Below are positions 7,293 through 28,300 of a DNA stretch of 64,000 nt, piece by piece; the first letter of the stretch is position 1; every line of letters begins with the position of its first letter. The DNA lies in the NCBI GenBank assembly GCA_963722915.1, contig CAVROR010000012.1, positions 2,182 to 66,181 on the forward strand, read 5' to 3'. Source of the DNA: an uncultured Gammaproteobacteria bacterium. GTDB taxonomy: Bacteria; Pseudomonadota; Gammaproteobacteria; Xanthomonadales; Xanthomonadaceae. The position numbers and the translations under genes were made by a program. The notes under the pieces are model-generated. The model did no database searches and was not told the origin of the DNA. It was given only the letters and a program-made list of their open reading frames with translations.

Positions 7293-7327
7293 GATCCGTG
7301 ATCCGGCATCCACGATCCGTGATCCGC
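7293..7327. repeat. heptanucleotide tandem array (GATCCGN)5
   Basis: gatccgt gatccgg catccac gatccgt gatccgc, located 46 nt upstream of the fadL ATG. Confidence 0.85.
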
Positions 7328-7372
7328 GCAGCACCCCACACCCCACAGAACACTCCACTGGAGAGATCACGC

Positions 7373-8716
7373 ATGCAACACGCACACCGCCTCACGCGCC
7401 TGTCGGCGCTCGCGCTGGGCATCACCGGCGCGCTGGCCTTCGGCCAGGTCCAGGCATCGGGCTTCCAGCTCAAGGAAAACAGCGTCAAGTCGATGGGCAG
7501 CGCGTTCGCCGGTTCCGGCGTGAAGACCGGCGACACCTCGGTGGTCGTCAACAACCCGGCCACGATGACGCAGTTCGAAGGCACCACCGTGCAGGCCGAC
7601 GTGACCGTCATCGACCTCAACTATGAATTCCAGGGCAGCGGCACCGACGCGCTCGGCCGCCCGCTGACCGGCAGCAACGGCGGCAACGCCGGTGGCGTCA
7701 CCCCGGTGCCGGCGCTGTCGGTCGTGCACAAGCTCGACAACGGCGTGGCGCTGGGTGCGATGGTCTCGGCGCCGTTCGGACTGAAGACCGAGTATGAATC
7801 CGGCTGGGTCGGCCGCTACTTCGCGCAGACCTCGGACGTGAAGATCGTCGACCTGACGTTCTCGGCCGCCGTCGACGTCACCGACCGCTTCTCCGTCGGC
7901 GTCGGCGCGATCTACTCCAGCGCGGACGTGACCCTGTCGCGCGCGGTGGACTTCGGCACGCTGCTGTTCTCCAACCCGGCCACGCGCCCGCTGCCGTTCG
8001 CGCAGCCGCAGGCCCGCGACGGGTTCATCGAGGTCAGCGGCGACGACACCGGCTTCGGCTGGCTGGTGGGTGCCAACCTGCGCCCGACCGACCGCCTGGC
8101 GCTGGGCCTGAGCTACCGCTCGGAAATCGACTACGACCTGACCGGCACCGCCGACTGGACCGTGCCGCAGGACGTGGCGGCCGTGTTCGGTGCCAGCCCC
8201 ACCACCGCCCCGCTGTTCCGGGACGGCGGCGTGACCGCCAAGCTGACCACCCCGTCGATCACCTCGGTGGCGGCCACCTACGACATCACCGACCGCTTCA
8301 AGGTGATGGCGACCTGGTCGGAGACCGGCTGGTCCTCGCTGCGCGAAGTGCGCATCAACTTCGACAACCCCGATCCGGATGCGGTCGAGCCGTTCGTGTG
8401 GAAAGACACCGTGTTCGCCTCGCTGGGCGCGGAGTACAAGCTCAACGACGCGTGGACCCTGCGCGGCGGCGTGGCCCACGACGAGACCCCGACCAGCATC
8501 GAGCACCGCACCCCGCGCCTGCCCGACGACGACCGCGTGTGGTATTCGCTCGGCGCCACCTGGATGGTCAGCCCGGCGCTGGACGTGAGCTTCGCCTACA
8601 CCCGCATCGAGCCGAAGGACCCGAAGGTGGACATCGCCAGCGGCGGCAGCCGGCTCACCGGCCCGTTCGACGGCAACGCCAACCTGGTCGGCGTGTCGGC
8701 GCAGTACCGCTTCTGA
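7373..8716 (+). CDS. fadL: long-chain fatty acid outer-membrane transporter (FadL/OmpP1/TodX family)
   Basis: GGAGAG RBS before ATG 7373. Signal peptide ending AFGQVQASGFQLKENSVKSMGSAFAG (family N-terminal hatch motif). C-terminal beta-barrel signature GVSAQYRF. Confidence 0.9.
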   Translation: MQHAHRLTRLSALALGITGALAFGQVQASGFQLKENSVKSMGSAFAGSGVKTGDTSVVVNNPATMTQFEGTTVQADVTVIDLNYEFQGSGTDALGRPLTGSNGGNAGGVTPVPALSVVHKLDNGVALGAMVSAPFGLKTEYESGWVGRYFAQTSDVKIVDLTFSAAVDVTDRFSVGVGAIYSSADVTLSRAVDFGTLLFSNPATRPLPFAQPQARDGFIEVSGDDTGFGWLVGANLRPTDRLALGLSYRSEIDYDLTGTADWTVPQDVAAVFGASPTTAPLFRDGGVTAKLTTPSITSVAATYDITDRFKVMATWSETGWSSLREVRINFDNPDPDAVEPFVWKDTVFASLGAEYKLNDAWTLRGGVAHDETPTSIEHRTPRLPDDDRVWYSLGATWMVSPALDVSFAYTRIEPKDPKVDIASGGSRLTGPFDGNANLVGVSAQYRF

Positions 8717-8745
8717 TCGGCTGACCGGTCAACCGGTTGCAACAG

Positions 8746-8773
8746 AAAAACCCCGCCTCGGCGGGGTTTTTTT
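8746..8773 (+). terminator. rho-independent terminator of fadL
   Basis: aaaaaCCCCGCCtcgGCGGGGttttttt, 30 nt after the fadL stop. Confidence 0.85.
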
Positions 8774-8925
8774 ATGGATGCAAGGGACGGGCGACATAGC
8801 CTGCGTCGGTCGTTTGGCCCATCTGAAACCTGAAAGTGATCTGCCGCCGCCAGTGTCATGCAGACGGTGAAGCAGATCCCTCTCTGCGTTCGGGACTGAC
8901 CTGCCCCCAGTAGCCGTACCGCCAG

Positions 8926-9312
8926 TTACTGGGAGAGTCCGGGGTTGAAGGGTACTGCGGTGGGGTTGGATTGGGTTCGGTGGTTAGCGGCAAACTGGGC
9001 CGGCGGGATGCGTCCGCAACTGCTGTGCGGTCGCACCTGGTTGTAGTCGCGGCGCCACTCGGCGATGACGTCGCGGGATTGGACCAACGACGCGAACCAG
9101 TGCTCGTTGAGGCACTCGTCGCGGAACTTGCCGTTGAAGCTCTCGATGTAGCCGTTTTGCATGGGCCGGCCAGGTTCGATCAGCAGGTGCTGGATGCCGT
9201 GCTGCTGCGTCCATGCAATGAAGGCCCGGCTGGTGAACTCCGGACCGTTGTCGGTGCGCACGGCCCGCGGGTAGCCGCGGAACCGCGCCGCCTGGTCCAG
9301 CACGCGCACGAC
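8926..9312 (-). pseudogene. IS3-family transposase OrfB, C-terminal fragment
   Basis: VVRVLDQAARFRGYPRAVRTDNGPEFTSRAFIAWTQQHGIQHLLIEPGRPMQNGYIESFNGKFRDECLNEHWF... (DDE integrase core, third acidic residue region). Begins abruptly at the 9312/9313 junction. Confidence 0.9.
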
Positions 9313-9403
9313 TGCGTATTGCCACCGAGTTGACCACTCATTGCCAAATCAACTGACCGCAATCGGCAGCACCACTGACCACGGTCGCCATCCAACTGAC
9401 CAG
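9313..9403 (+). repeat. left-end terminal repeat array (4-5 units, 21-23-bp period)
   Basis: tattgccacc, then TGACCAC 9331, CTGACCGC 9353, CTGACCAC 9375, CTGACCAG 9396. This is the inverted orientation of the right-end array. Confidence 0.8.
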
Positions 9404-9596
9404 TTCCCGACTTCAAATTCATTCTTTGCATGCTGTGTAGCACATAGGAGCATCTAGCTTCAGCCCTGATCGATCTGCGTCATCAGAGCCGAAGTAAGGG
9501 AGGCAAGCGAACGTGAGGGTCGGCAGGGATTCGTGTAAAAAACAGCCGAATTCGCTCTAAGTCTTTGACTCCACAAGCTTTAGGCCGTGTACCAAC

Positions 9597-10577
9597 TCAT
9601 AAATTCAATCTGGCGACGCCGTATGCTGCGGTGACCTCTCGGTCGCGTTTCTGCAGCCAGTCTTTGGTGGCACTTCGTCCGATCGGTGTGCCGGCGCGAC
9701 GATGAACCAGCTGCGCGAGCTTCACGCGCATGCCCGGATCACGGCACAGAAAAATGATCGGTTCGAGGTCCGCGCCGATAAACGCGTGCCCGTCCGCTAA
9801 CAGCCGTCTCGCCAGTTCGACCCGCTGGGCATGGCCGCCGAGGACTGCATTGAGAGCTTTAACCGCCGCGGCCCGTTTCGGCCCCTCGTCCGGCAACTGG
9901 GCGGCGTAGCTATGGCGAAGCTTGGAGACCGCCCGCATTTCCTGCTCGACTCTGCCGGGCGCGCAGGCCCTCACTCCCGGCAAATTACCCACCGGGATGG
10001 GTACCACCTTGGGCGGACTGATGACGTCGCCCGCCTCGTCTCGAATTGCGGGTGTAAAGCCCTGAACCGTTACGCGCGTCGAGCCTGACAACGCTTGGGT
10101 TCCAATGCGGGCCCATGTCGAAGGCCCGGTTGCAGTGGCAAGTCGATAAAAATGCGTGTGGAGTTCTTTGAGTTCGTCGAGCACCCGACCGAGCTCAGCA
10201 ATTTTAGCCTCACGGTCGGCAAGCAGCGTTTGCAAACGTCCCTCGCGTTCCAGCCGTGTGATCTCGTTGTCGGCTCGCTTCATGTCCTGCAAGGCAATCG
10301 AGCCGGCCGCAAACTTGTCCTGGGCGCAGTCCCCGCCAATCAGCGTCACGGCGCCGTCTTTGCGCCGAGCGACCCATCCCCGCCCATGTTTTCGACTGCA
10401 GAGCTTTCCTGTCGGCTTAAGTACGCAACACAACAGGGGTTCGTCGGCGAACGCGTACCACCCCACCAGCATCGCGTAACTGTCGACGTCGATGGGTTCG
10501 TCAGGCCGAAAATGCGGCTCCCTCAGGATCTCGGCGACTGATTCGAACCTGCGCACCCCTTGGACGGTTTCCACCAT
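9597..10577 (-). CDS. hypothetical protein, 326 aa, no family recognised
   Basis: Intact ORF with GGAGAC 6 nt before the ATG. N-terminal Cys/His cluster (CCVLKPTGKLCSRKHGRGW...GGDC), central predicted coiled coil (LQDMKRADNEITRLEREGRLQTLLADREAKIAELGRVLDELKELH). No signal peptide or TM segment. Visibly lower GC than the core genome. Confidence 0.7.
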   Translation of the reverse strand: MVETVQGVRRFESVAEILREPHFRPDEPIDVDSYAMLVGWYAFADEPLLCCVLKPTGKLCSRKHGRGWVARRKDGAVTLIGGDCAQDKFAAGSIALQDMKRADNEITRLEREGRLQTLLADREAKIAELGRVLDELKELHTHFYRLATATGPSTWARIGTQALSGSTRVTVQGFTPAIRDEAGDVISPPKVVPIPVGNLPGVRACAPGRVEQEMRAVSKLRHSYAAQLPDEGPKRAAAVKALNAVLGGHAQRVELARRLLADGHAFIGADLEPIIFLCRDPGMRVKLAQLVHRRAGTPIGRSATKDWLQKRDREVTAAYGVARLNL

Positions 10578-10584
10578 CTCTGTC

Positions 10585-10758
10585 TCCGGCTCTGAGCTCT
10601 GTCGATCCTAAGGAGGGTCGGCAGGCAGGGCGAGCGATACCCTGTTCCAGTTTGGCAATGTAGCGCCGCACCTGCTCATCGCCCCATTGCTTGCGTGTGT
10701 AGCGGATGACGCCGCGCATGTCGGCTTCTGCCGCATCCGTCAGCATGAAGACGGTCAA
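10585..10758 (-). pseudogene. parE: ParE/RelE-family toxin, N-terminal ~55 codons only
   Basis: (MTVF)MLTDAAEADMRGVIRYTRKQWGDEQVRRYIAKLEQGIA...PSLG..ELRAG matches the N-terminal half of ParE toxins. The C-terminal half is missing and the frame runs into unrelated sequence. The start overlaps the parD stop. Confidence 0.7.
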
Positions 10759-11009
10759 ACGCGGCGGCCTTCGGCCAGTTCTTCATTGAGGATTTCGTTG
10801 ACGCTCTTGGCCGACACCTTCCCCGCCAGACCCTCGTTGATGCGCCCACCCAACAGGACTTTCAGCTCCTGCCATGCCTGATCGGCGTGGATGTCGCCGG
10901 GAAAGAGTCGTTCGAGTGCATATTGCTTGATCGTCTTGCCCTGCACGGCGGCCAACGCCTTGAGGCTTTGGTGCTGCTGGTCGGTGATGTCGATAGTCAG
11001 CCGGCTCAT
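10755..11009 (-). CDS. parD: ParD-type ribbon-helix-helix antitoxin
   Basis: MSRLTIDITDQQHQSLKALAAVQGKTIKQYALERLFPGD..., 84 aa. The stop overlaps the toxin start (TTGA). Confidence 0.75.
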   Translation of the reverse strand: MSRLTIDITDQQHQSLKALAAVQGKTIKQYALERLFPGDIHADQAWQELKVLLGGRINEGLAGKVSAKSVNEILNEELAEGRRV

Positions 11010-11116
11010 CGATAAATGGCTCCGTAGGCTCCCACAAACCCACATTGGCACATAAGGAAGCAACGAGCAATCCGAGAACGTACAGACGCTTCAGGCCCAA
11101 GAACTTCATGCCAGAT

Positions 11117-11132
11117 AGTGAGTTAACTCACT
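11117..11132. promoter_or_regulatory. perfect 16-bp palindrome AGTGAGTTAACTCACT (candidate operator)
   Basis: Exact dyad, about 110 bp upstream of the parD ATG, at the junction with the ynfA stub. Confidence 0.35.
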
Positions 11133-11143
11133 TTTGGCTGTTC

Positions 11144-11245
11144 TTAGCACGATTCCCTGCCGGCCCTTAGATAGGGCAGATAGCAGCCGACAATCTCGGT
11201 CAGGGCGGTCAACGCGAACAGCGCAAAGAGCTTCAGAACCAGCAT
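11144..11245 (-). pseudogene. ynfA: YnfA (UPF0060) family membrane protein, first ~30 codons only
   Basis: MLVLKLFALFALTALTEIVGCYLPYL... matches the YnfA N-terminus (E. coli: ALCEIIGCFLPWLWL), followed by a premature stop. The full family length is about 108 aa. Confidence 0.55.
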
Positions 11246-11327
11246 GGTTAGCCTCGTGGAGTGAAGGGCGCACCGTAGTGCTGCGGCGCTCGTTCGAAAC
11301 CGTCGCCGCAACACCAGACCCCATGCG

Positions 11328-17023
<5,696 letters not shown>

Positions 17024-17034
17024 GCGTGGCGGCC

Positions 17035-18051
17035 TCAGTGGTCGTGCGAGGCGCCGGACTTCTCGATGTCCGCCTTCACCAGGTAGCTCTGCTCGACCAC
17101 GACCTGCTCGCCGGCTTTGAGGCCGGACAGCACTTCGACCCGCGCTGGCATCGCGCTTGCCCAAGCTCGACCGGCCGCACCTCGTAGGTGTCGCCCGACG
17201 CGGACGAACACCACGTCCCAGTCGCGGAACCGTGTCTGCAGCGCCGTCGAGCGGCACCACCAGCGCGACCGGCTGCTGCGCCACCGTGATGCGCGCCTTG
17301 ACCGCCGAGCCCGGCCGCCACAGGCCATCGACGTTCTGCGATGCGTCGCGCGCGCGACGGTGCTCTGGCTCGCGGTTGCCGTGCCGGCAGCACGCGTTCG
17401 AGCACCGTTTCGGCGGTCACGCCGTCGCTCATGCGGGTCACGACCACCGGGCACGCCCGGCGGTGATGTGCTGCGCATCGGCACCGAAGATGTGCAGGTC
17501 GACCCACAGCTCGGACAGGTCCGCGATCTCGAACAGCGGCACGCCTTCGCTGGCGACCGCGCCGACGGCGGCATCGCGCGCCAGCACCACGCCGGAGATC
17601 GGCGCGGCGACGGTGTACGTCGTCAGGCTGAGATTGCTTTCGATCGTCGCCAGCGCCTGGCCCGCCGCGACACGGTCGCCGACGTTGGCGCGCAGCGACG
17701 GATCGGGCCGGGGAAGCGCGCCGTGACCTGCGCGACGCGGCCTTCGACCGGCGTCAGCAGGCCCTGCACCTCATGCTCGTCGGCGATCGTGCCGGCCGCG
17801 ACCGCCGCGACCTCGACCCCGGACTGCTTGGCGACGTCCGCCGCAATGGTGGTGCTGGGCGGGCCTTCTTCGTGCCCGGCTTCGCTCTCGGCGTGCTTAT
17901 CGCCGCCGCTGGACGCTGCGCCGGCGTCGTGGTCGTCGTTGTGTGCTTCACCGGCGTGCTCGTCGGCACCTGCGGGCGGCGTTGCCGGCTTGTCGCCGCA
18001 GCCGGCCAGCAGCATGACCAAGGCCAACTGGGCCAGGGTGGAACGGATCAT
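17035..18051 (-). pseudogene. czcB: RND membrane-fusion protein CzcB, frame broken several times
   Basis: Lipoprotein N-terminus MIRSTLAQLALVMLLAGCG with a His/Asp-rich region. Middle part (GDTYEVRPVELG) and C-terminus (VEVLSGLKAGEQVVVEQSYLVKADIEKSGASHDH) are in other frames. Confidence 0.7.
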
Positions 18052-19328
18052 GGGGTGTCTCCTTGCAGGCGCTCAGGCGCGGCAGTCACAAAGGACTCGC
18101 CGGTCAGGCGCTGGATTTCGATCAGGGCACGCTGGGCTTCCAGCGCGGCTTCGAGTTGTTGTTTGCGCGCGTTTGTCGTCTCGGACTGCAACTGCGCCCA
18201 TTCGAGGTAGCTGATCGCGCCGGCCCGGTAGGCCTGTTCGGCGGCCGCTTCGGCACGCGTGAGCTTCGGCAACACGTCGCGCTGCAGGCGGTCGACCTCG
18301 ACCTGCGCCGACAGGAAACGGCCATGTGCTTCGGCGAGCGTCGAATACAGGGCCAGACCGCGTGCTTCGCGCTCGATCTCCAGCGACACCAGCTCGGCCT
18401 GGGCTTGGCGGATCTCAGGCTTCGCGCGGGTGGCGCCTCCCAACGGCATCGAGATGCTGCCCACCAGTGCGACATCGTCGCTGGCCTGCAGACGACGCAC
18501 GCCAATCTGCCAATCCAGATCCGCACTGGCCGATGTGCGTGCCAGTTGCAGGCGCGCCTCGCGAATACGTAGCTCGCCAGCGAACTGCGCCAGCTCCGGC
18601 GTGCGCTGCAACAGATCCGCCAGCTCACCGAAGGCAGCGATGCGGGGCAGCGCGAGCGGGTTGGCCGCGACCACATCGAAGGTCGGAGCGCGCTCGCCCC
18701 ACAGGGCGGCCAGGTGCTGTCTGGCCGCGACGTGGCGCTGATCGGCGCGAGCATGATCAAGCTCCGCGCGGGCCAGCATGGCCTGCGCGGTGAGCACGAC
18801 CGACTCGGGCGACGCCCCGGCCTCGAGGCGCTTGCGCGCCCCGGCGACGGTACGGGTGCGCTGCCCGATGTCGAGTTGCGCGATCTCGCGCTGACGCATC
18901 GCCGAGACGATGGCCAGATAACGCCGAGCAACCTCGGCCAGCAGGTCGAGCCGGCGCACTTCGCGCTCCAGCGCGAGCGCATCGATCCGGCTTTGCCCCA
19001 GAGTGCGGCGTGCTTCGAGTTTGCCGCCGCGCTCGAACACCGAGGCCAACGTCAGGGTCAGTTCGGCGCCTTGCACGCCGCTGGCGTCGCCGGTGCCGCC
19101 GACGTTCTCGAGTTCGGCGCCCACCACCCACGGCGGTCGGAACGCGGCCCGGTCCCGCTCGGCAGTGAGCGCGTCACGGCGCGGCCCCAGCAGTCTTAAG
19201 TCAGGGTGGGTCTTGGCGACGCGCTCGAAGGCGTCGTTCAGGGTCAAGCGGTCGGCAGCGAGCGATGGCCAGACGGCCAATGCGCACGCCGCGACGAGCA
19301 CGGCTTTCGCCGCGAGTCGCAAACGCAT
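18048..19328 (-). CDS. czcC: TolC-family outer-membrane factor CzcC
   Basis: Intact 426-aa ORF with a signal peptide and two OEP-type repeats. The stop overlaps the czcB start. Confidence 0.85.
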   Translation of the reverse strand: MRLRLAAKAVLVAACALAVWPSLAADRLTLNDAFERVAKTHPDLRLLGPRRDALTAERDRAAFRPPWVVGAELENVGGTGDASGVQGAELTLTLASVFERGGKLEARRTLGQSRIDALALEREVRRLDLLAEVARRYLAIVSAMRQREIAQLDIGQRTRTVAGARKRLEAGASPESVVLTAQAMLARAELDHARADQRHVAARQHLAALWGERAPTFDVVAANPLALPRIAAFGELADLLQRTPELAQFAGELRIREARLQLARTSASADLDWQIGVRRLQASDDVALVGSISMPLGGATRAKPEIRQAQAELVSLEIEREARGLALYSTLAEAHGRFLSAQVEVDRLQRDVLPKLTRAEAAAEQAYRAGAISYLEWAQLQSETTNARKQQLEAALEAQRALIEIQRLTGESFVTAAPERLQGDTP

Positions 19329-19383
19329 GAGAGTGCTCCGATGAACTCAGGGGATCGCAGGACCGGCACGCAGCCGGTAGCGG

Positions 19384-19767
19384 TCATGCCCGGATCGGAG
19401 GACGGAACGGGGCCAGTGCGGGCTCGGTCGCCACGCGTTGCGCGGTCCAGGGCCGTATCGGCAAGGGAGCGTGGACCGTCAGCGGCGCGTCGATGACCGG
19501 CGCGAGCATCGCCGAGAGCTGGCCACAACAATGCGCAAAGTGGTGAATGAGGTGCAGGGTTCCGGCAGTGCGATCACCCGATTCGTCGGCTTGCGCCAGT
19601 TCGGTCTGGACATCACTGCCGTCGTGTAGGTGCTGCTCGCTGAGCCCGTGGGTCAGCTCGTGCAATTCGCCCATCGCCGCCAGCATCGGCTGAAATACCC
19701 CGCCCAATAGCAGCCCCACCAGCAGGAGCCAGGGCAGGAGCGATCGATGGGAAGGGTGGCGCTTCAT
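19384..19767 (-). CDS. CzcI-like small periplasmic protein
   Basis: 127 aa with a signal peptide and the motif HLIHHFAHCCGQLS, resembling the CC/His motif of CzcI. Position immediately upstream of czcC. Confidence 0.55.
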   Translation of the reverse strand: MKRHPSHRSLLPWLLLVGLLLGGVFQPMLAAMGELHELTHGLSEQHLHDGSDVQTELAQADESGDRTAGTLHLIHHFAHCCGQLSAMLAPVIDAPLTVHAPLPIRPWTAQRVATEPALAPFRPPIRA

Positions 19768-20393
19768 GGGGCGGTGTTTTCGTTGTGCCGTCGCGTCGAC
19801 GAGCGCGCTTGTCGCGCCTCTCGCAGGATCTCAACAGCTTCCTTGACCACGTAAAGCCCGATCAAAGTGCCTATCACGTAGTCAGGGTACGGTGACGCAA
19901 GCACCATCACCAGCAGTCCTGCCACGATCACACCGATATTGGCCACCACGTCGGCCCGGGTGAAGATCCACGTGGATCGTAAGTGCACTTCACCAGAGCG
20001 GAACGGCGCGAGTAGACGCAAGACGGTGAGATTCACGGCCAGCGACAGCACGGCCGTAGCGATCATCCAGCTGCTTTGCGGCTCGGCGCCGTCCACCACG
20101 CGGCGGCCGACCTCGAGCAAAACCCCGAGCCCCAGTACCAGCAAGGCAACGCCGCTCACCATGGCGGCATTCGCCTTGAACCGCACCGAGCGGCCGATCG
20201 CCACCAGCCCGATCGCATAGGCCGTCGCGTCAGAAAGCATGTCGAGCGCGTCCGCCAGCAGGCCGGTCGATTGGCCCTTCCAGCCGGCGATGCCGCCAAT
20301 GACGGCCATCGACGCATTGAGAACCAGCGCGATCACAAGGATGCGCCGTTCGTTGGCATTCTTCGCTTCCGCGTGGCAACCGCAGTCGCTCAA
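19764..20393 (-). CDS. czcD: cation diffusion facilitator family transporter (short CzcD-like)
   Basis: MSDCGCHAEAKN... with TM motifs LLADALDMLSDATAY and RADVVANIGVIVAG. The stop overlaps the next gene (ATGA). Confidence 0.8.
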   Translation of the reverse strand: MSDCGCHAEAKNANERRILVIALVLNASMAVIGGIAGWKGQSTGLLADALDMLSDATAYAIGLVAIGRSVRFKANAAMVSGVALLVLGLGVLLEVGRRVVDGAEPQSSWMIATAVLSLAVNLTVLRLLAPFRSGEVHLRSTWIFTRADVVANIGVIVAGLLVMVLASPYPDYVIGTLIGLYVVKEAVEILREARQARSSTRRHNENTAP

Positions 20394-20440
20394 CGGGCGC
20401 TCCTCGACTCGGTTCCCGACGTGGCATCCGACAGGGAGCC

Positions 20441-20471
20441 AGCGTAAAGTCCGTACCCACTACGGAGTCAA
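20441..20471 (-). promoter_or_regulatory. MerR-type promoter: -35 TTGACT, 19-bp spacer containing a dyad, -10 TACGCT
   Basis: Minus strand reads TTGACTccgtagtgggtacggacttTACGCT. Dyad TCCGTA-N5-TACGGA lies at 20450-20466. About 48 nt upstream of the czcD ATG and divergent from merR. Confidence 0.6.
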
Positions 20472-20481
20472 GACGGTCCGC

Positions 20482-20898
20482 ATGAAGATCAGCGAAGCGG
20501 CAGCCGCGAGCGGTTGCCATCTGGAAACCGTCCGCTATTACGAGCGGGTGGGGTTAATGCCGGCTCCGGCGCGGGTGGGCAGCGGGTACCGTGCCTATTC
20601 CGAGCAGGATGTCGCGCGGCTGCGCTTCATCACGCGCGGTCGGACCTTGGGCTTCAGCCTGGACGACATTCGCAGTCTTCTACGACTGGACGATGACCCG
20701 CAGTTGTCTTGCACCGAGGTGGATGGCGTAGCGCGCACCCACCTGGCTGATGTTCGACGCCGGATCGATGCCCTGCAGCGCATCGCGGACGAGCTGGAAC
20801 GGGTCATCACCCAATGCGCCGGCGGTGTACGCGGGCAGTGCGCCATCCTGGGCACGCTGCGGCACCCGACGATGGCATCGAGCGAGCCGCAGGGGTAG
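20482..20898 (+). CDS. MerR-family metal-responsive transcriptional regulator (CadR/ZntR-like)
   Basis: MKISEAAAASGCHLETVRYYERVGLMP...YRAYSEQDVARLRFITRGRTLGFSLDDI. C-terminal Cys residues (C...CAGGVRGQC). Confidence 0.85.
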   Translation: MKISEAAAASGCHLETVRYYERVGLMPAPARVGSGYRAYSEQDVARLRFITRGRTLGFSLDDIRSLLRLDDDPQLSCTEVDGVARTHLADVRRRIDALQRIADELERVITQCAGGVRGQCAILGTLRHPTMASSEPQG

Positions 20899-20902
20899 GC
20901 GC

Positions 20903-21223
20903 GTGACGCTGGATCGCTATCTGGAGGCGGCCACTCGCGAAAACACGCGCCGCAGCTATCAATCGGCGGTGCGCCATTTTGAAGTCGAATGGGGCGGCCA
21001 TCTTCCGGCCACCGCCGACAGCGTGGCGCGTTACCTGGCCGACCATGCCAGTCGCCTCGCGATCAACACGCTCAAGCAGCGGTTGGCGGCACTAGCGCAA
21101 TGGCACACCGAACACGGGTTCGTCGATCCAACCCGGCCGCCTCTGGTGCGCAAGCCGGATGCGTTGTATTCAATCCTAGATAGTCTGCGCAGGCCCATTT
21201 TCGAGCATCAGATTGCGGAATGA
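20903..21223 (+). pseudogene. tyrosine recombinase/integrase, N-terminal SAM-like domain only
   Basis: VTLDRYLEAATRENTRRSYQSAVRHFEVEWGGHLPATADSVARYLADHASRLAINTLKQRLAALAQWH...PLVRK. Similarity stops near 21165, where GC drops. No catalytic domain. Confidence 0.65.
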
Positions 21224-21452
21224 TGTGATCGCAAAACGCTTGCGCAGCATCGCCTCGCATGCGGAAACTTTGCGTTTCATCGTGGGCTAGAAAGCATCAC
21301 AAATACTGGTTCTTGATCGCCAATATTCCAGTGCCGTCAAAATAAAATAACGACAAAAAGATAAGTCGCGTGCCGTTGATTAAAACCCTATGCGATTGCG
21401 GGCGAAGTCGGTAATGTGCCGCTTCCTACTGCAACACAGGCACTGATTGCTC

Positions 21453-21743
21453 ATGGCAAGCGCTGATGTGTGGACGGAAGAGATCGTGGCGTCTTTCGGT
21501 CCGTACGTGCCACTAGCCCGCATTTGGCCATTACTGTCTCTGCCTTCGGCGGACGCAGCCAGAAGGGCTGCTGCAAGGGGGTCAACGCCAGTGCAATGCG
21601 TCTCCCTAGAAGGAAGACGCGGCTGGCATCTGCGTGCAGGTGACTTGGCGCTTTGGCTGAGCGAATCGCTGCACGATACGCGGACTGGTAATGAAGCTCG
21701 CGAATTCGCCCGCGAGCAAATTCGGCGGTTGACCAAAGACTGA
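21453..21743 (+). CDS. PrtN-like (pyocin activator family) small DNA-binding protein
   Basis: MASADVWTEEIVASFGPYVPLARIWPLLSLPSADAARRAAARGSTPVQCVSLEGRRGWHLRAGDLALWLSE follows the PrtN/excisionase-like pattern. Lies in a low-GC, AT-rich setting. Confidence 0.5.
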   Translation: MASADVWTEEIVASFGPYVPLARIWPLLSLPSADAARRAAARGSTPVQCVSLEGRRGWHLRAGDLALWLSESLHDTRTGNEAREFAREQIRRLTKD

Positions 21744-22064
21744 TCGCCAAGCACTCAGCTACGTCCGGGCTTACCTGCCACTAACCGCGCGAACCCAGGT
21801 CATCGACCAACACCAACGGCAAGGAGATCACCAACCGGGAACTTTCAAGCCGCGTTTCAGAGCACTAACCAAAAAGCACGGGCGTAAAAAAAGCCGGCGC
21901 CTTCACGGGGCACCAGCTTTTCTCGTGGGAACTACGCTGTCGTTTGTTAGGGCGACGGCTGCATTCTCATTCGCTGCACCCGGCATGTCAAGCGCTCGCG
22001 GCCGCCCCAACGGCGCGCGACGGGCAGCTGCGTCCGCTCGATTCGTATCGAATGAGAAGAATTC

Positions 22065-23587
22065 ATGATCCAAAAAAATCTATGTCGGCTGCTGCTCACC
22101 ACAGACCTGTCGAATCGCGAGATTGCGCAGCGATGCAGCGTTTCTCACAACACCGCCGGACGCTATCGAGAACGGCTCCTCGAAGAGAGCTTATGCTGGG
22201 AACAGGTTCGCAGGCTTTCCGGAGAAGCGCTCAACGCCCGCCTCAACGGGGCGCGCGATCGACGCAAAAAGACGTTTGTCGAACCTGACTGGTCTCATGT
22301 TCACGCCGAGCTTCATCGACCTGGCGTAACGATCACTCTTCTGTACAGGAGTATGCGACAGGCATTGATGCGGGACAGATGTCAGACCGCGAGTTTCGCC
22401 GTCGCTACGATCGTTACACACGGTCCCTTGGCCTAGTGATGCGCCAAGCGCGCCGACCGGGCGAAGAGCTCTACGTTGATTACTCGGGTAAGCGCCCCTC
22501 AGTGGTGGATGCGAATACGGGCGTTGCAACTCCAGTCGAATTGTGGATCGGCGTGCTCGGTTCCAGTCGGAAAACGTTCGCGTATTGCACGCCGACCCAG
22601 CAAGTTCCGGACTGGATCGACGCACATGTACGTGCACTTGAGTTTTACGGCGCACTGCCTCAGCACTTGGTGCCGGACAACCTCAAATCGGCGGTAACCA
22701 AGATTTCGCGCAAGGACGGCCACTACGTCAATCCCTCCTACCAGGCATTCGCAGACCACTATGACCTGATGGTCTTGCCGACGCGTCCGCGCAAGCCAAA
22801 AGACAAGGCCGCCGTCGAATGCGGAGTGCGGTTGGCTCAAATGTGGATCCTCGCGCGACTCAGAAACCGCACTTTTTTCTCGATTCAGGACTTGAACAGG
22901 GCAATCGCTGAGTTGCTGATTCGGCTCAATAGCAGACCGATGCGCTTGCGCGGTGGAAAGAGCCGAAACGACTTGTTTGAGGAAATCGACTCACCGGCGA
23001 TGCGGCCTCTTCCGGTACAGGCCTATGAGTTCGCAGAGTGGCGGATCGGAGTAACGATTGCGCAGGACTATCACGTCGTCTCGGAGCGCAACTACTACTC
23101 AGTTCCCTACACACTGGTGTCGCGGAAGGTCAACGTGCGCATAACTACCACTGTGATCGAGGTTTACCACCGCGATCAACTCGTCGCCACGCATCAACGC
23201 TCCTACGGTATAGATGATGTCTTCACCAAATCTGAGCACCAGCCACCAGCGCATCGGCTCTACGGGGAAGAACAAATGGCCAGCCTCATCGCATGGGCTG
23301 AAGCAGCAGGACCTCTCGTCGCCGACTTCGTTCGCCAGCACATGAAGTCTCATTCTGCCGCCGCCTCAATCCAGGCGTTTCGTGGCCTCAAGCGGCTTGC
23401 ACGGGATTTCAGTGTGGAACGCCTGAGTGATGCGTGTGCGCGCGCACTCCGCATGAAGGCGACCTCAATCACATCCGTGCGCTCAATGCTCTCGCGCGGC
23501 ATCGAGAAAACGCCGCTGCAGCTCGAAGCAGTCAATGAAGCAACTACGACCCACGCGAACGTGCGTGGTGCCGAAAATTATCAGTAG
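22065..23587 (+). CDS. istA: IS21-family transposase IstA (one frameshift near 22346 in this sequence)
   Basis: N-terminal HTH piece MIQKNLCRLLLTTDLSNREIAQRCSVSHNTAGRY...VTITLLY (frame 0) continues as (Q)EYATGIDAGQMSDREFRRRYDRY...LYVDYSGK...LVPDNLKSAV (ORF 22379..23587) if one base is restored after CTGTAC. Confidence 0.85.
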
Positions 23588-23598
23588 GAAAGCTATAT

Positions 23599-24339
23599 AT
23601 GAACCACATCCACACGATCGGACAGCTGCGCAGCTTGCGCTTGGCCGGCATGGCCCAGGCATTTGAGCAGCAGATAGGCGACAGCGCTTTCGCGAGTTTG
23701 GCGTTCGAACAGCGCGTTCAGATGATGGTGGAAGCAGAGGCATCGCAGCGCGATACGCAGCGTTATCTGCGTCTGCTTAAGACGGCGAAGCTCAAGGTCG
23801 TTGCCGCACCTGAGGACATAGACTATAGGCCGGGACGCGGACTGGACAAAACCGTGATAGCCGACCTGCTGACATGCACGTGGATCAATGCACATCGCAA
23901 CGTGCTGATCACTGGCGCTACCGGCACCGGAAAAACATGGCTTGGTTGTGCGCTAGGCGTACAGGCAGCTCGTCATGGCATTTCTGTCGCATATCGGCGA
24001 ACAGCAAGAATGTTGGAAGAGATGGCGATCGGGCATGAAGATGGAACGATCTCACGTCAGCGCAACCAACTTGAGAAAGCACATCTGCTCATTCTCGACG
24101 ATTTCGGTCTGACCGCGTTGTCGAATCGCGGCCGATCCGACCTCCTTGAAGTGCTGGATGATCGAGTCGGAAGCGGCGCCACGCTCATCATTGGCCAGAT
24201 GCCCGTAAAGGAATGGCATGGATACATCAATGATCCAGCGCTCGCCGACGCCATTCTCGATCGACTCGTCCACAGCAGCGTCAAACTTGACTTGAAGGGC
24301 GACTCGATGCGGCGAGCCCGTAGCCGGGGTGGTCAATAG
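23599..24339 (+). CDS. istB: IS21-family helper ATPase IstB
   Basis: Walker A ITGATGTGKTWL and Walker B LLILDDFG. 246 aa, starts 12 nt after the istA stop. Confidence 0.9.
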   Translation: MNHIHTIGQLRSLRLAGMAQAFEQQIGDSAFASLAFEQRVQMMVEAEASQRDTQRYLRLLKTAKLKVVAAPEDIDYRPGRGLDKTVIADLLTCTWINAHRNVLITGATGTGKTWLGCALGVQAARHGISVAYRRTARMLEEMAIGHEDGTISRQRNQLEKAHLLILDDFGLTALSNRGRSDLLEVLDDRVGSGATLIIGQMPVKEWHGYINDPALADAILDRLVHSSVKLDLKGDSMRRARSRGGQ

Positions 24340-24500
24340 TTTGCCGGAGCTGGGCAGAGAACTGCCGGAACTGGGCAGCGAATTGCCTGAAGTGGGCACG
24401 CTGCTGCCGAAGCTGGTCAGCGTGTCCGCCGGTTGTGGTCAGTCTTGCTGGCGAACGTGGTCAGTGCGAATGGCGGAGGTGGGCAATGGGCTGGCGGTTC
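24330..24500 (+). repeat. right-end terminal repeat array, 8 tandem units with 21-23-bp period
   Basis: Cores TGGTCA/TGGGCA at 24330, 24351, 24372, 24393, 24414, 24437, 24459 and 24481. Unit approximately GCCGGAnnTGGkCAGnnnnnn. The array starts inside the last codons of istB and ends at the insertion junction. Confidence 0.85.
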
Positions 24501-25378: not shown

Positions 25379-28300
25379 TCACTCCCCCAGCGTCAGCAGC
25401 GAGGCATTGCCGCCCGACGCGGTCGTGTTGATCGTGATCACCTTCTCGGTGGTGAAGCGCGGCAGGTAGTGCGGGCCGCCGGCCTTGGGACCGGTGCCCG
25501 ACAGGCCCTGGCCGCCGAACGGTTGCACGCCGACCACCGCGCCGATCTGGTTGCGGTTGACGTAGCAGTTGCCCACCCGCGCGCGCGTGGCGATGTAGTC
25601 CACCGTGCGGTCGATGCGCGAGTGCACGCCCAGCGTCAGGCCGTAGCCGGTGGCGTTGATCTGCGCCAGCACGCCGTCCAGGTCGTCGCCCTTCCAGCGC
25701 AGCACGTGCAGCACCGGCCCGAAGATCTCCTCGTGCAGCTGGTCCAGCGAGCGCAGCGCATACGCACGCGGGGCGAAGAAGCTGCCGTGCGCGGTGGCCT
25801 CGCCGATCGGCGCCTGGGCGATCAGCCGCGCCTCGCGCTCCATGCGCGCGGCGTGCTCGCGCAGCATCGTCATGGCGTCCTCGTCGATCACCGGGCCGAC
25901 GTCGGTCGACAGCAGGCCCGGGTCGCCCACGCGCAGTTCGGCCATCGCGCCGGCGAGCATCTGCTCGACCTTGTCGGCGATGTCCTCCTGCACGAACAGG
26001 ACGCGCGCGGCCGAGCAGCGCTGGCCGGCGGAGGTGAAGGCCGAGGCCATCACGTCCTTGACCAGCTGTTCGGGCAGGCACGAGGAATCGGCGATCAGCG
26101 CGTTCTGGCCGCCGGTCTCGGCGATCAGCACGGCGATGGCGGCATCGCGCGCGGCCAGCGCGCGGTTGATGGCGCGTGCGGTGCTGGTGGAGCCGGTGAA
26201 CGCCACGCCGGCCACGCGCGGGTCCTGGGTCAACGCGGCGCCGACGGTGGCACCGTCGCCCGGCACGAACTGCAGCACCGCCTCCGGCACGCCGGCCTCG
26301 TGCAGCAGCTGCGTGGCAACGAACCCGACCAGGCTGGTCTGCTCGGCCGGCTTGGCGATCACCGTGTTGCCGGCGGCCAGTGCCGCGGCCACCTGGCCGG
26401 TGAAGATCGCCAGCGGGAAGTTCCACGGGCTGATGCACACGAACACGCCGCGCCCGGACAGGTGCAGGGTGTTGGACTCGCCGGTGGGACCGGGCAGCAC
26501 GTCCGGCGCGAACAGTTCGCGCGCCTGCGCGGCGTAGTAGCGCAGGAAATCGACCGCCTCGCGCACCTCGGCGACCCCATCCGGGATGCTCTTGCCGGCC
26601 TCCTTGGTGCACATCGCGATGAACAGCGGCATGCGCGCTTCCATCAGGTTGGCGGCGTGCTCCAGGATCGCGGCGCGGCTGGCGGCCGGGGTCGCGTTCC
26701 AGTCCTCGTGCGCGGCCACGGCGTTGGCCAGTGCGCGCTCGACGGTGGCGCTGTCGGCCGGCGTCCAGTGGCCGGCGACCTCGCGGCGGTCGGCGGGGTT
26801 GGTCGAGGCGATCGGCTCACCGGTGGAGGTCGCGCCCGGCACCAGCGGCGTGGCGGTCCAGCGCTGCGCGGCAGCGGCGTTGACCTGCCCGGCCAGCGTG
26901 CGCAGTTGATCGTCGTTGGCGAGGTTCACGCCCATGGAATTGTTCCTCTGGATGCCGAAGCTGCGGTACAGGTCGACCGGCAGCGGAATGCGGGGATGCG
27001 GGATCTGTTCGAACGCGGCCACGGTCTCGACCGGGTCGCGCACCAGGTCCTGGATGGCGACGGCCTCGTCGGTGATGCGGTTGACGAAGCTGGAGTTGGC
27101 ACCGTTTTCCAGCAGGCGCCGCACCAGGTACGGCAGCAGGTCCTCGTGGCTGCCGACGGGTGCGTACACGCGGCACGGCACGTCCAGGCGGTCGGCCGGG
27201 ATGACTTCCGCGTACAGGTCGTCGCCCATGCCGTGCAGCTTCTGGAACTCGAAGCGGCCGGCGCGGCCCAGCATCGCCGCGCGGCGGTGGATGGCGGCGA
27301 TGGTGTGCGCGTTGTGGGTGGCGAACATCGGGTAGATGGCGTCGCCGGCTTCCAGCATGCGCCGCGCGCACGCCAGGTACGACACGTCGGTGTTGGGCTT
27401 GCGGGTAAACACCGGGTAGCCCGCCTGGCCGTCGACCTGGGCGCGCTTGACCTCGCTGTCCCAGTACGCGCCCTTGACCAGCCGCACCGGGATGCGGCGG
27501 CCATGGCGGCGGGCCAGGTCGGCGATGAAGCGATCACTTCCGGCGCGCGCTTCTGGTAGGCCTGCACGGCCAGGCCGTAGCCCTCCCAGCCGTCGAGCGA
27601 CGCATCGGCGTAGGCCGCGGCGATCACGTCCAGCGACAGCTCCAGCCGGTCGGCCTCCTCGGCGTCCACCGTGAAGCCGATGCCGTGGTTGCGCGCCAGT
27701 TGCGCCAGTTCCAGCACGCGCGGGGTGAGTTCGGCCAGCACGCGCTCGCGCTGGGCGTGCTCGTAGCGCGGGTGCAGCGCCGACAGCTTCACCGAGATGC
27801 TGGGCACGCCGAACACCTCGGCGCCGGCATAGGCGCCACTGCGTCCGATCGCCTCGATCGCATCGCGGTAGGCCTGCAGGTAACGCGCCGCATCGCCCGC
27901 GGTCAGCGCCGCCTCGCCCAGCATGTCGAAGGAATAGCGGTAGGCGGCGTTGGCGCCCTTCTTGGAACGCGCCAACGCTTCGCCGATGGTGCGCCCCATG
28001 ACGAACTGGTGGCCCATGATCCGCATCGCCTGGCGCACGGCCAGCCGGATCACCGGCTCGCCGACGCGGCCGACCAGGCGCTTGAAGGCGTTATGGACGT
28101 CGCGCCGGGTCTCGTCGGCCAGGTCGACCAGGTGGCCGGTCAGCATCAGGCCCCAGGTGGAGGCGTTGACCAGCACCGAGTCGGACCGGCCCATGTGGCG
28201 TTTCCAGTCGGCCTCGCCGAGCTTGTCGCGGATCAGCTTGTCGGCGGTGTCTTCATCGGGGATGCGCAGCAGCGCCTCGGCCACGCACATCAGCAGCACG

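What the first reader, a model, noticed from the sequence alone, without database searches (positions are those of the whole stretch)
9597..11009. Orphan 326-aa gene placed exactly where the C-terminal half of a ParE toxin should be, behind an intact ParD antitoxin
parD (10755-11009) is intact and translationally coupled to parE, but ParE similarity ends after about 55 codons (near 10585, ...PSLG..ELRAG). Only a few bases later an intact 326-aa ORF starts at 10577. Its Shine-Dalgarno GGAGAC is built from the last parE-like codons, and it lies on the same strand, so parD-parE'-orf326 would be co-transcribed. I recognise no family for the protein. It has an N-terminal Cys/His cluster (CCVLKPTGKLCSRKHGRGW ... 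GGDC), a central heptad-like coiled coil and an unassigned C-terminal half, with no signal peptide or TM segment. GC is visibly lower than in the core genome. Two readings are possible. It may be an accidental recombination scar. Or it may be a toxin-swap or effector placed under control of the parD promoter and antitoxin, i.e. a candidate new TA-like or defence-like module on a mobile element.
Basis: inference. Interest (0 to 1): 0.65.

Follow-up and report, generated by a model that had tools for sequence, protein, structure and literature searches.

The report
Eroded parDE beside unrelated cargo gene
An intact antitoxin gene (parD) and a broken toxin gene (parE) sit next to an intact 326-codon gene only because a transposon end joined them, and that gene belongs to a widespread uncharacterised family of mobile-element accessory genes rather than being a swapped-in toxin.

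Summary
The sequence facts hold. parD (10755-11009) is intact, parE is cut short, and an intact 326-aa ORF (9597-10577) follows on the same strand in a low-GC patch.

Three details are wrong:
- ParE homology stops at codon 45 (10624), not at about 55.
- The Shine-Dalgarno belongs to the ORF's own leader; a 75%-identical homologue that has no parE shares it.
- The gene is not an orphan. A profile search finds 331 representative clusters, nearly all 315-340 aa, and it matches phrog_7003.

The break in parE coincides exactly with a 13-nt copy of the GAGGG tip of a TnXax1/Tn3-type inverted repeat. Two such repeats (9515-9550 and 11133-11168) bracket the whole unit, so it is a MIC-like mosaic inside a heavy-metal island.

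No independent homologue locus had ParD or another RHH antitoxin next to the gene. Homologues are solitary genes in prophage, ICE, plasmid and island accessory regions, often near CBASS, R-M or TA genes.

The protein has a conserved Cys-Cys-His-Cys set, a long helical hairpin and a helical C-terminal part. It has no Pfam, NCBIfam, PADLOC, PDB or BFVD match.

Verdict: a recombination scar plus an uncharacterised cargo gene. A toxin swap is not supported.

The parts
8926..9309 (-). Fragment of an IS3-family transposase (integrase core C-terminal part only), just outside the left inverted repeat
   Evidence: Pfam rve_3 3.5e-32 and rve 1.6e-12, only profile positions 53-102 of rve
9515..9550 (+). 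Left TnXax1/Tn3-type inverted repeat (IR-L). The GAGGG tip is at 9515 and the interior points towards ORF326.
   Evidence: A 35-nt inverted repeat with 11133-11167, 83% complementary (I1). The same 40-47 nt recur in more than 200 Xanthomonas plasmids. The GAGGG tip is the hallmark of TnXax1 IRs and MICs (PMC4337579).
9597..10577 (-). ORF326: intact solitary cargo gene of a widespread uncharacterised family. It has an N-terminal domain with a conserved C50/C60/H64/C84 set, a helical hairpin, and a basic helical C-terminal part.
   Evidence: ORF call. Eight homologues of exactly 326 aa with no indels. dN/dS 0.13 against L001. 331 representative clusters. phrog_7003. AF2 pLDDT 86.8. Conserved columns.
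10578..10612 (-). 35-nt remnant of ORF326's own leader, with SD AGCCGGAGA at 10583-10591
   Evidence: The SD block and start region align with the homologue in L001, which has no parE
10613..10625 (+). Solo 13-nt IR tip (GAGGGTCGGCAGG), an exact copy of 9515-9527 in the same orientation, lying exactly at the parE breakpoint
   Evidence: Direct repeat D6. 2 exact matches in 64 kb, 0 in 100 shuffles. Also present in the independent contig L005.
10624..10758 (-). parE remnant: the first 45 of about 105 codons. The open frame runs on to 10501 through foreign sequence.
   Evidence: BLASTP to intact ParE aligns residues 1-45 only, 69% identity. DNA alignment. Pfam ParE_toxin N-terminal half only.
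10755..11009 (-). Intact parD (RK2-type RHH antitoxin), now without a functional toxin partner
   Evidence: Pfam ParD 4.7e-33, profile 1-79 of 80. 85% identical to plasmid ParD.
11133..11168 (-). Right TnXax1-type inverted repeat (IR-R), with a variant AAGGG tip at 11168
   Evidence: Inverted repeat I1. 3 mismatches in 21 nt to IR-L. The inner part continues like the X. citri plasmid IR (ACAGCCAAAAGTGAG.TAACT).
11169..11245 (-). 5' stump of a ynfA/UPF0060 membrane-protein gene, cut by IR-R
   Evidence: Pfam UPF0060 profile positions 2-26 of 107, E 0.002. Sequence read.

Best explanation
The locus is a mosaic made by Tn3-family (TnXax1-type) transposon ends inside a chromosomal heavy-metal resistance island. 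It is not a designed toxin-antitoxin variant.

An RK2-type parDE cassette lost the 3' 57% of parE. The loss ended inside a TnXax1-type inverted repeat, of which only the 13-nt GAGGG tip survives. That tip now abuts the 35-nt remnant of the leader of an unrelated, self-contained cargo gene, ORF326. Two further IRs (9515 and 11168) bracket parD-parE'-ORF326 as a 1.65-kb MIC-like unit without a transposase.

ParD is left as an orphan antitoxin and the ParE stub is most likely inert.

ORF326 is a real gene under purifying selection. It belongs to a widespread, uncharacterised, always-solitary family carried in variable regions of prophages, ICEs, plasmids and genomic islands.

Its conserved residues are a Cys-Cys-His-Cys set plus glycines and aromatics. 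No catalytic constellation is conserved. From this I infer a zinc-stabilised binding protein (nucleic acid or protein) with a coiled-coil hairpin, not an enzyme. My best guess for its role is a stand-alone factor in conflict between mobile elements and phages (defence or exclusion), at about 40%.

Because only 35 nt of its own upstream region remain, I infer that its transcription here depends on read-through from the ParD-autoregulated parD promoter. That would be a by-product of the rearrangement.

Shown: the anatomy, the IR tip at the junction, the non-conserved pairing, the family size and the purifying selection. Inferred: the order of events, zinc binding, co-transcription and the conflict role.
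For: Breakpoint:
- ParE homology stops at codon 45.
- The next 13 nt are an exact copy of the IR-L tip (D6; 2 observed, 0 expected).

Transposon setting:
- IR-L and IR-R form a 35-nt inverted repeat (I1).
- IR-L recurs in more than 200 Xanthomonas plasmids.
- GAGGG-tipped TnXax1 IRs form MICs, sometimes with more than two IRs, and can carry TA genes (PMC4337579).
- In an X. citri plasmid, intact parDE lies 158 bp from a back-to-back pair of the same IR tips. This gives a plausible ancestral arrangement.

Independence and mobility:
- The independent contig L005 has the same junction. It differs by 2 nt over 9359-11426, while the adjacent ATPase gene differs by 6.5%, so the unit moved recently as a block.
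- IR-R truncates ynfA.

ORF326 as a separate gene:
- The SD and leader are shared with a parE-less homologue.
- Homologue contexts show no ParD or RHH partner, and the 16-locus BLASTP analysis found no conserved neighbour.
- The family has 331 representative clusters, almost all 315-340 aa.
- dN/dS is 0.13.
- C50, C60 and H64 are 99% and C84 is 100% conserved.
- The AF2 models are confident.

Conflict-type neighbourhoods:
- Type III CBASS.
- Type I R-M plus CBASS.
- RES-Xre.
- Dcm methyltransferase.
- SymE plus a restriction endonuclease in an ICE.
- The accessory slot between lysozyme and integrase in a prophage.
- SMODS islands.
Against: - No 5-bp target-site duplication flanks the IR pair (AACGT against AGATA). 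Transposition of the present unit is therefore not demonstrated, and the order of events is inferred.
- The junction is ambiguous by a few bases. parE codons 44-47 in relatives (CTGGCCGCC...) resemble the IR tip, so a cryptic-end or microhomology event cannot be told apart from a deletion into a real IR.
- No promoter or terminator call is informative in this GC-rich DNA, so co-transcription is untested.
- For the functional guess: no PADLOC hit, no matches in 50,697 phage genomes or in IMG/VR, and no recognisable effector domain. The defence-neighbourhood evidence comes from about 15 contexts without a statistical background.
Confidence: 0.8

Rival explanations
1. Toxin swap: ORF326 has replaced ParE as the toxic or effector partner of ParD. 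This would form a new TA-like or defence module in which ParD neutralises ORF326 or transcriptionally gates it.
For: Same strand, no predicted terminator between parD and ORF326, only 35 nt of native leader left, and parD kept intact. The arrangement is present in two assemblies. TA modules are known to exchange partners (general knowledge).
Against: - The two assemblies are the same recent element (2 nt difference in 2 kb), so they count as one event.
- No other homologue locus examined has ParD or an RHH gene upstream.
- The junction is a transposon-end scar.
- ORF326 is 326 aa, solitary, and has its own SD.
- There is no overlap or coupling with parD; an 85-codon junk ORF lies between them.
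- No catalytic residues are conserved.
Confidence: 0.05
2. ORF326 is an accessory DNA-binding protein of mobile-element recombination or maintenance (a TnpT/KfrA-like helper), not a conflict factor.
For: - A conserved Cys/His set plus a coiled coil plus a basic C-terminal part (pI 10.6), with no catalytic residues.
- Family genes lie directly downstream of small serine recombinases in Salmonella and K. aerogenes islands.
- They lie near tyrosine recombinases in L001, L006, L019 and L020.
- They lie near parAB in two plasmids.
- TnXax1's own helper TnpT is a coiled-coil protein of similar size.
Against: - TnpT is a KfrA_N protein and is unrelated to the family (hhalign probability 0.4%).
- The neighbouring recombinases are of different classes. 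The two resolvases are only 36% identical and one lacks its catalytic N-terminus.
- No neighbour is conserved among the 16 loci compared.
- Many copies have no recombinase nearby.
Confidence: 0.2
3. ORF326 is an anti-defence or establishment gene of mobile elements, for example an inhibitor of CBASS or restriction.
For: It lies next to CBASS or R-M genes in several loci. It appears non-enzymatic and would be binding-type. It is present on conjugative plasmids and an ICE.
Against: - It is also found in small non-conjugative chromosomal islands and beside housekeeping genes.
- It is absent from sequenced phage genomes and IMG/VR, where anti-defence genes are usually common.
- No link to plasmid leading regions was seen.
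Confidence: 0.1
4. The junction is an assembly chimera, or ORF326 is a decaying pseudogene of no consequence.
For: The neighbouring P-type ATPase and czcA reading frames are broken in this window, so sequence quality or gene decay is an issue nearby.
Against: The independent assembly L005 has the same junction. ORF326 is full length and collinear with all homologues. Its start is conserved.
Confidence: 0.03

Closest known systems
TnXax1-type mobile insertion cassettes (MICs) of the Tn3 family in xanthomonads (Ferreira et al. 2015, PMC4337579)
   Same: GAGGG-tipped IRs in inverted orientation flank passenger genes with no transposase. Extra or solo IR tips occur. TA genes and hypothetical genes are listed among MIC cargo. 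The IR sequence recurs in more than 200 Xanthomonas plasmids.
   Different: One tip is AAGGG. The arms are 83% identical. There is no 5-bp target duplication. A third tip is reduced to 13 nt inside a gene remnant. The host is a 70%-GC chromosome that I did not identify.
RK2/RP4-type ParDE type II toxin-antitoxin system
   Same: parD is full length and 85% identical to plasmid ParD. The parD stop overlaps the parE start (TTGA). The first 45 ParE codons are 69% identical to an intact ParE.
   Different: The toxin lacks residues 46-105, so this is an eroded TA module with an orphan antitoxin.
TA pairs inside Tn3-family transposons (mBio 2020, PMC7157771; known to me from title and abstract)
   Same: A ParD/ParE-type pair is associated with Tn3-family ends.
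   Different: There is no transposase or resolvase in the unit, and the toxin is destroyed.
phrog_7003 and 'hypothetical protein' homologues (e.g. WP_004150870 in K. pneumoniae, WP_013700256 in B. gladioli)
   Same: ORF326 matches phrog_7003 at 2e-13, and relatives match at up to 1e-27. They share length, the Cys/His motif and a solitary arrangement.
   Different: Nothing is known about any member. Every source calls them hypothetical, and no paper mentions the accessions.
TnpT, the cointegrate-resolution helper of Tn4651/TnXax1
   Same: Similar size, a coiled-coil-rich and non-enzymatic protein, carried by the same transposon group.
   Different: TnpT has a KfrA_N domain. Profile comparison with the ORF326 family gives probability 0.4%. 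It is not a relative.

Membership tests
ParDE type II toxin-antitoxin system | Intact RHH antitoxin ParD | tested here: met
   Pfam ParD 4.7e-33, full profile. 85% identity to plasmid ParD.
ParDE type II toxin-antitoxin system | Intact ParE toxin (about 100 aa, including the C-terminal half) | tested here: not met
   Only residues 1-45 of about 105 align. Pfam covers the N-terminal half of the profile only.
New TA-like module ParD + ORF326 | Conserved adjacency of the putative toxin family with a cognate antitoxin gene across independent loci | tested here: not met
   About 15 independent contexts, none with ParD or an RHH gene upstream. No conserved neighbour among the 16 loci compared by BLASTP. 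L005 is the same element.
New TA-like module ParD + ORF326 | Toxicity of ORF326 that is neutralised by ParD | not testable with these tools
   Needs expression and rescue experiments.
TnXax1-type MIC (Tn3 family) | Passenger genes flanked by inverted TnXax1-like IRs with a GAGGG tip | tested here: met
   IR pair 9515-9550 / 11133-11168, 83% complementary. Tips are GAGGG and AAGGG. The criterion is from PMC4337579.
TnXax1-type MIC (Tn3 family) | No transposase or resolvase inside the unit | tested here: met
   The only plausible genes between the IRs are ORF326, parE' and parD. The other listed ORFs there are shorter overlapping frames.
TnXax1-type MIC (Tn3 family) | 5-bp target-site duplication as proof of transposition | tested here: not met
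   The flanks are AACGT (9510-9514) and AGATA (11169-11173). The left flank does not continue ynfA.
Known anti-phage defence systems | Match to a described defence or candidate-defence protein model | tested here: not met
   PADLOC-DB v2: 0 families at E<=0.1. Pfam and NCBIfam: nothing.
Known anti-phage defence systems | Enrichment next to known defence genes | tested here: inconclusive
   CBASS, R-M, TA or SMODS lie within a few kb in roughly half of about 15 contexts. No background statistics were computed.
TnpT (Tn4651/TnXax1 resolution helper) | Sequence or profile similarity to TnpT / a KfrA_N domain | tested here: not met
   hhalign probability 0.4%. TnpT has KfrA_N and ORF326 does not.
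phrog_7003 (unknown function) | Significant HMM match | tested here: met
   E 2.2e-13 for ORF326 (N-terminal 148 residues). 5.5e-13 to 1.1e-27 for seven relatives, covering up to 278 of 309 profile positions.

The most novel reading that the evidence does not exclude
The ORF326 family (about 330 aa) has an N-terminal domain with a conserved Cys-Cys-His-Cys set, a coiled-coil hairpin and a helical C-terminal part. Its predicted fold has no PDB or BFVD match. It could be a new single-gene, non-enzymatic anti-phage or anti-plasmid defence (or exclusion) system spread by transposon cassettes, ICEs, plasmids and prophages across Proteobacteria and Actinobacteria. A still bolder variant is that in this cassette the orphan ParD has been co-opted as its transcriptional gate.
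Probability: 0.3. Interest if true: 0.6.

Novelty: new member of a known kind. Interest (0 to 1): 0.3.

Why it matters
The locus is a clean example of two known processes. One is TA erosion, where the toxin is lost and the antitoxin kept. The other is cargo shuffling by TnXax1-type Tn3 ends, which can create operon-like adjacencies that look designed but are not. This is a useful caution when mining for new TA or defence modules by adjacency in a single genome.

The lasting value is the cargo gene. It belongs to a sizeable, length-invariant family under purifying selection and without annotation (331 clusters at 50% identity). The family has a confident predicted structure with no structural relatives, and it sits in accessory or defence regions of many kinds of mobile element. 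That makes it a reasonable, but not exceptional, candidate for functional screening.

Tried and rejected
Annotation and structure searches that found nothing:
- Pfam, NCBIfam and PADLOC on ORF326 and on distant relatives. One longer relative has a partial Glyoxalase_8 hit in its N-terminal extension, which is uninformative.
- Foldseek of the full model against PDB and BFVD, and of the N-terminal domain model against PDB. Only coiled-coil or noise hits, all E>0.07.
- Profile search against PDB sequences.

Hypotheses tested and rejected:
- A HEPN-like R-x-H motif in the C-terminal part. H292 is not conserved in the family.
- An HNH/His-Me finger idea for the beta-beta-alpha unit at residues 66-88. 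No acidic, Asn or second-His position is conserved, and there is no fold hit.
- TnpT homology.
- A conserved partner gene (the 164/165-aa, 251-aa and 273-aa neighbours). They are shared only among near-identical islands and have no Pfam or PADLOC hits.

Searches for further copies that returned nothing:
- The broad alignment was too diverse for the search for related loci.
- The profile word search returned almost nothing new.
- No hits in phage genomes, IMG/VR, JGI metagenome scans or complete E. coli genomes.

Other checks:
- The promoter/terminator scan was uninformative in this GC-rich DNA.
- Rfam found nothing above threshold in 8500-11600.
- A literature search for the accessions and phrog_7003 returned 0 papers.
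Full report
**1. Observation**

On the minus strand the region reads parD (10755-11009), then a TTG-initiated ORF (10758-10501) whose start overlaps the parD stop, then an ATG ORF of 326 codons (10577-9597).
- Pfam assigns ParD at 4.7e-33 over the whole profile. It assigns ParE_toxin only to the N-terminal half of the second ORF, and nothing credible to ORF326.
- GC is 0.585-0.63 across 9200-11400, against 0.70-0.77 in the flanking core.
- An independent metagenome contig (L005) carries the same arrangement, which rules out an assembly chimera.

**2. Where parE really ends**

I aligned the DNA with intact parDE from an Agrobacterium plasmid and an X. citri plasmid, and ran BLASTP against the intact 105-aa ParE.
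- Both show that homology stops after codon 45 (window 10624), not at about codon 55.
- The remaining 40 codons of the 85-codon ORF are read-through of unrelated sequence.
- The ParE stub lacks residues 46-105. From what is known of ParE toxins, a product missing most of the beta-sheet core and the C-terminus should be inactive. This is inference from family knowledge and was not tested.

**3. What sits at the break**

- The 13 nt directly after the last parE-like codon (10613-10625, GAGGGTCGGCAGG on the plus strand) are an exact copy of 9515-9527 (D6). This 13-mer occurs exactly twice in the 64-kb window, and zero times in 100 shuffles.
- The copy at 9515 is the outer tip of a 35-nt inverted repeat whose partner lies at 11133-11168 (83% complementary).
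- The same repeat sequence hits more than 200 Xanthomonas plasmids.
- Ferreira et al. 2015 describe exactly such elements. TnXax1 (Tn3 family) IRs 'always maintaining the GAGGG tip' flank passenger genes as mobile insertion cassettes. These sometimes have more than two IRs and solo IRs, and their cargo includes TA genes and hypothetical genes (PMC4337579).
- In one X. citri plasmid the intact parDE lies 158 bp from a back-to-back pair of these tips, followed by a TALE gene. The parDE-next-to-TnXax1-IR configuration therefore exists with an intact toxin.

Map of the window's structure:

| Element | Coordinates |
|---|---|
| IR-L | 9515 |
| ORF326 | 9597-10577 |
| 35-nt leader | 10578-10612 |
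| Solo tip | 10613-10625 |
| parE' | to 10758 |
| parD | to 11009 |
| IR-R | to 11168 |

- IR-R cuts a ynfA/UPF0060 gene after about 26 codons.
- A truncated IS3 transposase lies left of IR-L.
- There is no 5-bp target duplication. The present unit is a rearrangement product, not a clean insertion.
- The simplest history is a deletion running from mid-parE into the inner part of an IR that left only its tip. A few bases at the junction are ambiguous, because parE codons 44-47 in relatives resemble the tip.

**4. Is ORF326 coupled to parD by design?**

The evidence says no.
- The SD block AGCCGGAGA (10583-10591) and the start region are shared with the 75%-identical homologue in L001, which has no parE upstream. 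The ribosome-binding site is the gene's own.
- I examined about 15 independent genomic contexts of family members. Only L005 has ParD, and L005 is the same element: 2 differences in 2,068 nt, while the adjoining ATPase gene differs at 6.5% of positions.
- In the other contexts the gene is solitary, with 60-900 nt of upstream spacer and varied neighbours.
- All-against-all BLASTP of flanking ORFs across 16 of these loci found no neighbour family shared between independent loci.

Contexts of family members:

| Context |
|---|
| Type III CBASS plus two unknown genes |
| Tyrosine recombinase/KfrA_N pair plus SseB |
| DUF4365 and a P4-type integrase |
| guaA/guaB region in Nocardiopsis |
| Type I R-M plus CBASS on a B. 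gladioli plasmid |
| RES-Xre TA |
| Dcm methyltransferase |
| Pseudomonas IncP plasmid |
| SymE/REase region of a K. pneumoniae ICE |
| Integrase cluster on an IncF plasmid |
| Slot between lysozyme and integrase of a myovirus-like prophage |
| Island edges downstream of small serine recombinases in Salmonella and K. aerogenes |

**5. What ORF326 is**

It is not an orphan.
- The word-indexed search found seven full-length homologues of exactly 326 aa (51-99% identity) with no indels.
- The exhaustive profile search found 331 representative clusters at E<=1e-3 (204 at 1e-10), almost all 315-340 aa and matched end to end.
- Members occur in Gamma- and Betaproteobacteria and in an actinomycete. 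In that actinomycete the gene has 53% GC, which fits horizontal transfer.
- dN/dS against the L001 copy is 0.13.
- All sources call the proteins hypothetical, and no paper mentions them.
- The only library hit is phrog_7003, of unknown function.

Sequence and structure:
- Across 107 diverse members, the positions conserved at 99% or more are C50, C60 and H64 (99% each) and G67, G81 and C84 (100% each). Y41, F89, G197 and F266 are 90-94% conserved. No acidic, His or Lys constellation typical of a nuclease, NTPase or transferase is conserved.
- AlphaFold2 gives a confident model (pLDDT 86.8). It shows a beta-rich N-terminal domain (1-93), a helical hairpin (94-164), a beta-hairpin (168-195) and a helical C-terminal part (209-319).
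- The N-terminal domain alone, modelled with a deeper alignment, is equally confident.
- Foldseek finds nothing significant in PDB or BFVD for either model. A sequence profile against PDB also finds nothing.
- The C-terminal part is basic (pI 10.6), and there is no TM-like segment.
- I infer a zinc-stabilised, non-enzymatic binding protein.

Because it rides a TnXax1-type cassette, I tested whether it is the transposon's helper protein TnpT. It is not. TnpT is a KfrA_N protein with no profile similarity to the family (probability 0.4%).

**6. How it most likely works**

At locus level (confidence about 0.8), this is an eroded parDE whose surviving antitoxin gene has been fused, by a transposon-end-associated rearrangement, upstream of an unrelated cargo gene. 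The composite can in principle be moved by a cognate Tn3-family transposase acting on the outer IRs.
- The block is 99.9% identical in two different backgrounds, so it has moved or recombined recently.
- Only 35 nt of ORF326's own upstream DNA remain and no terminator is predicted. Transcription probably comes from the parD promoter and would then be ParD-repressible. This is inference, and it would be a side effect of the rearrangement.

For the protein itself I commit, at about 40%, to a stand-alone defence or exclusion role. This rests on its solitary, variable-region and element-edge locations and its frequent CBASS, R-M or TA neighbours. The alternatives are:
- a DNA-binding accessory of recombination or maintenance, about 20%;
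- an anti-defence factor, about 10%;
- something else for the remainder.

The toxin-swap idea gets about 5%.

**7. Novelty and score**

- Orphan antitoxins, TA erosion and MIC mosaics are all known. The locus is a new member of known kinds.
- The cargo family is uncharacterised and structurally unmatched. That is worth recording, but it is not unusual among accessory genes of mobile elements.
- Interest is 0.3. The most novel reading not excluded is a new single-gene defence family, with probability about 0.3 and interest about 0.6 if true.

Noticed in passing
window 11328-14262 (- strand): The heavy-metal P-type ATPase gene is broken in this window. Relative to the collinear contig L005 it carries single-base insertions at 12215, 12207, 12198, 12091 and 11957. 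An ORF at 12409-14262 joins a CzcA C-terminus to the ATPase N-terminus without a stop. The cause is either gene decay or indel errors in the assembly.
   Followed up: partly
window 9359-11426 vs 11426-12413 (L005 comparison): There is a sharp identity boundary. The cassette plus its flanks differ from L005 by 2 nt in 2,068, while the adjacent ATPase gene differs at about 6.5% of positions, mostly third codon positions. This suggests recent transfer or recombination of the block between two related hosts. Both differences are nonsynonymous changes in ORF326 (Q97H, Y144D).
   Followed up: partly
window 8800-24400: The cassette lies in a heavy-metal resistance island: ynfA', P-type ATPase, czcCBA-like RND genes, a czcD-like cation efflux gene, a MerR regulator, and IS21 istA/istB at 22379-24339. 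The island sits between a FadL-type porin gene (7298-8716) and putA (25379-27487). GC drops to 0.55-0.59 at 20.8-24 kb.
   Followed up: partly
L011 2225-2315 (X. citri pv. malvacearum plasmid): A 91-bp miniature element made of two TnXax1-type IRs tip-to-tip lies 158 bp downstream of an intact parE and just before an avrBs3 TALE gene.
   Followed up: no
L026-L030 (Salmonella) 8316-8837 and L031-L034 (K. aerogenes) 8024-8599: In two different enterobacterial islands, a small serine recombinase gene lies directly upstream of the ORF326-family gene, which is the last or second-to-last island gene. The two recombinases are only 36% identical, and the Salmonella one lacks its catalytic N-terminus. 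This could be coincidence or a recurrent resolvase-cargo arrangement.
   Followed up: partly
L002 1227-7089 and L003 2170-7997: A type III CBASS operon (AAA/Trip13-like, Cap8, bacterial HORMA, SMODS, DUF6602 effector) is followed on the same strand by two unannotated genes (about 220 and 165 aa) and then the ORF326-family gene. The two small genes have no Pfam or PADLOC hits.
   Followed up: partly
L012 10001-10981 (Nocardiopsis yanglingensis) and L008: A 51%-identical, indel-free homologue with 53% GC sits beside guaA/guaB in a high-GC actinomycete. This points to cross-phylum horizontal transfer of the family.
   Followed up: no
L001 1524-3669: The 75%-identical homologue lies downstream of a divergent tyrosine-recombinase / KfrA_N gene pair. 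The pair weakly resembles the TnpS/TnpT resolution module of Tn4651/TnXax1-type transposons (25% identity over TnpS; N-terminal HTH similarity to TnpT). No GAGGG-type IR was found in the 380 nt after the gene.
   Followed up: partly
L001 4397-5152, L014 5767-6683, L017 1760-2146: Xre/MbcA/ParS-type antitoxin domains (RES/ParT-type TA systems) occur within 1-2 kb of three independent family members. Together with parD here and SymE in K. pneumoniae, this suggests the family gene tends to sit in TA-rich patches.
   Followed up: no
window 11020-11050 (- strand), upstream of parD: A short block (TATGTGCCAATGTGGG) about 25-45 nt upstream of the parD start is conserved with the plasmid parDE loci (ATATGTGTTAATGTGGGG). 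Everything further upstream is replaced by IR-R. It is possibly the ParD operator or core promoter.
   Followed up: no
L024 2767-7146 (X. citri pv. vignicola plasmid plA): The same TnXax1-type IR separates an RHH / Eco57I-like methylase / BsuBI-PstI restriction cassette from an AbiEii toxin gene. This is another case of these IRs bounding defence cargo.
   Followed up: no
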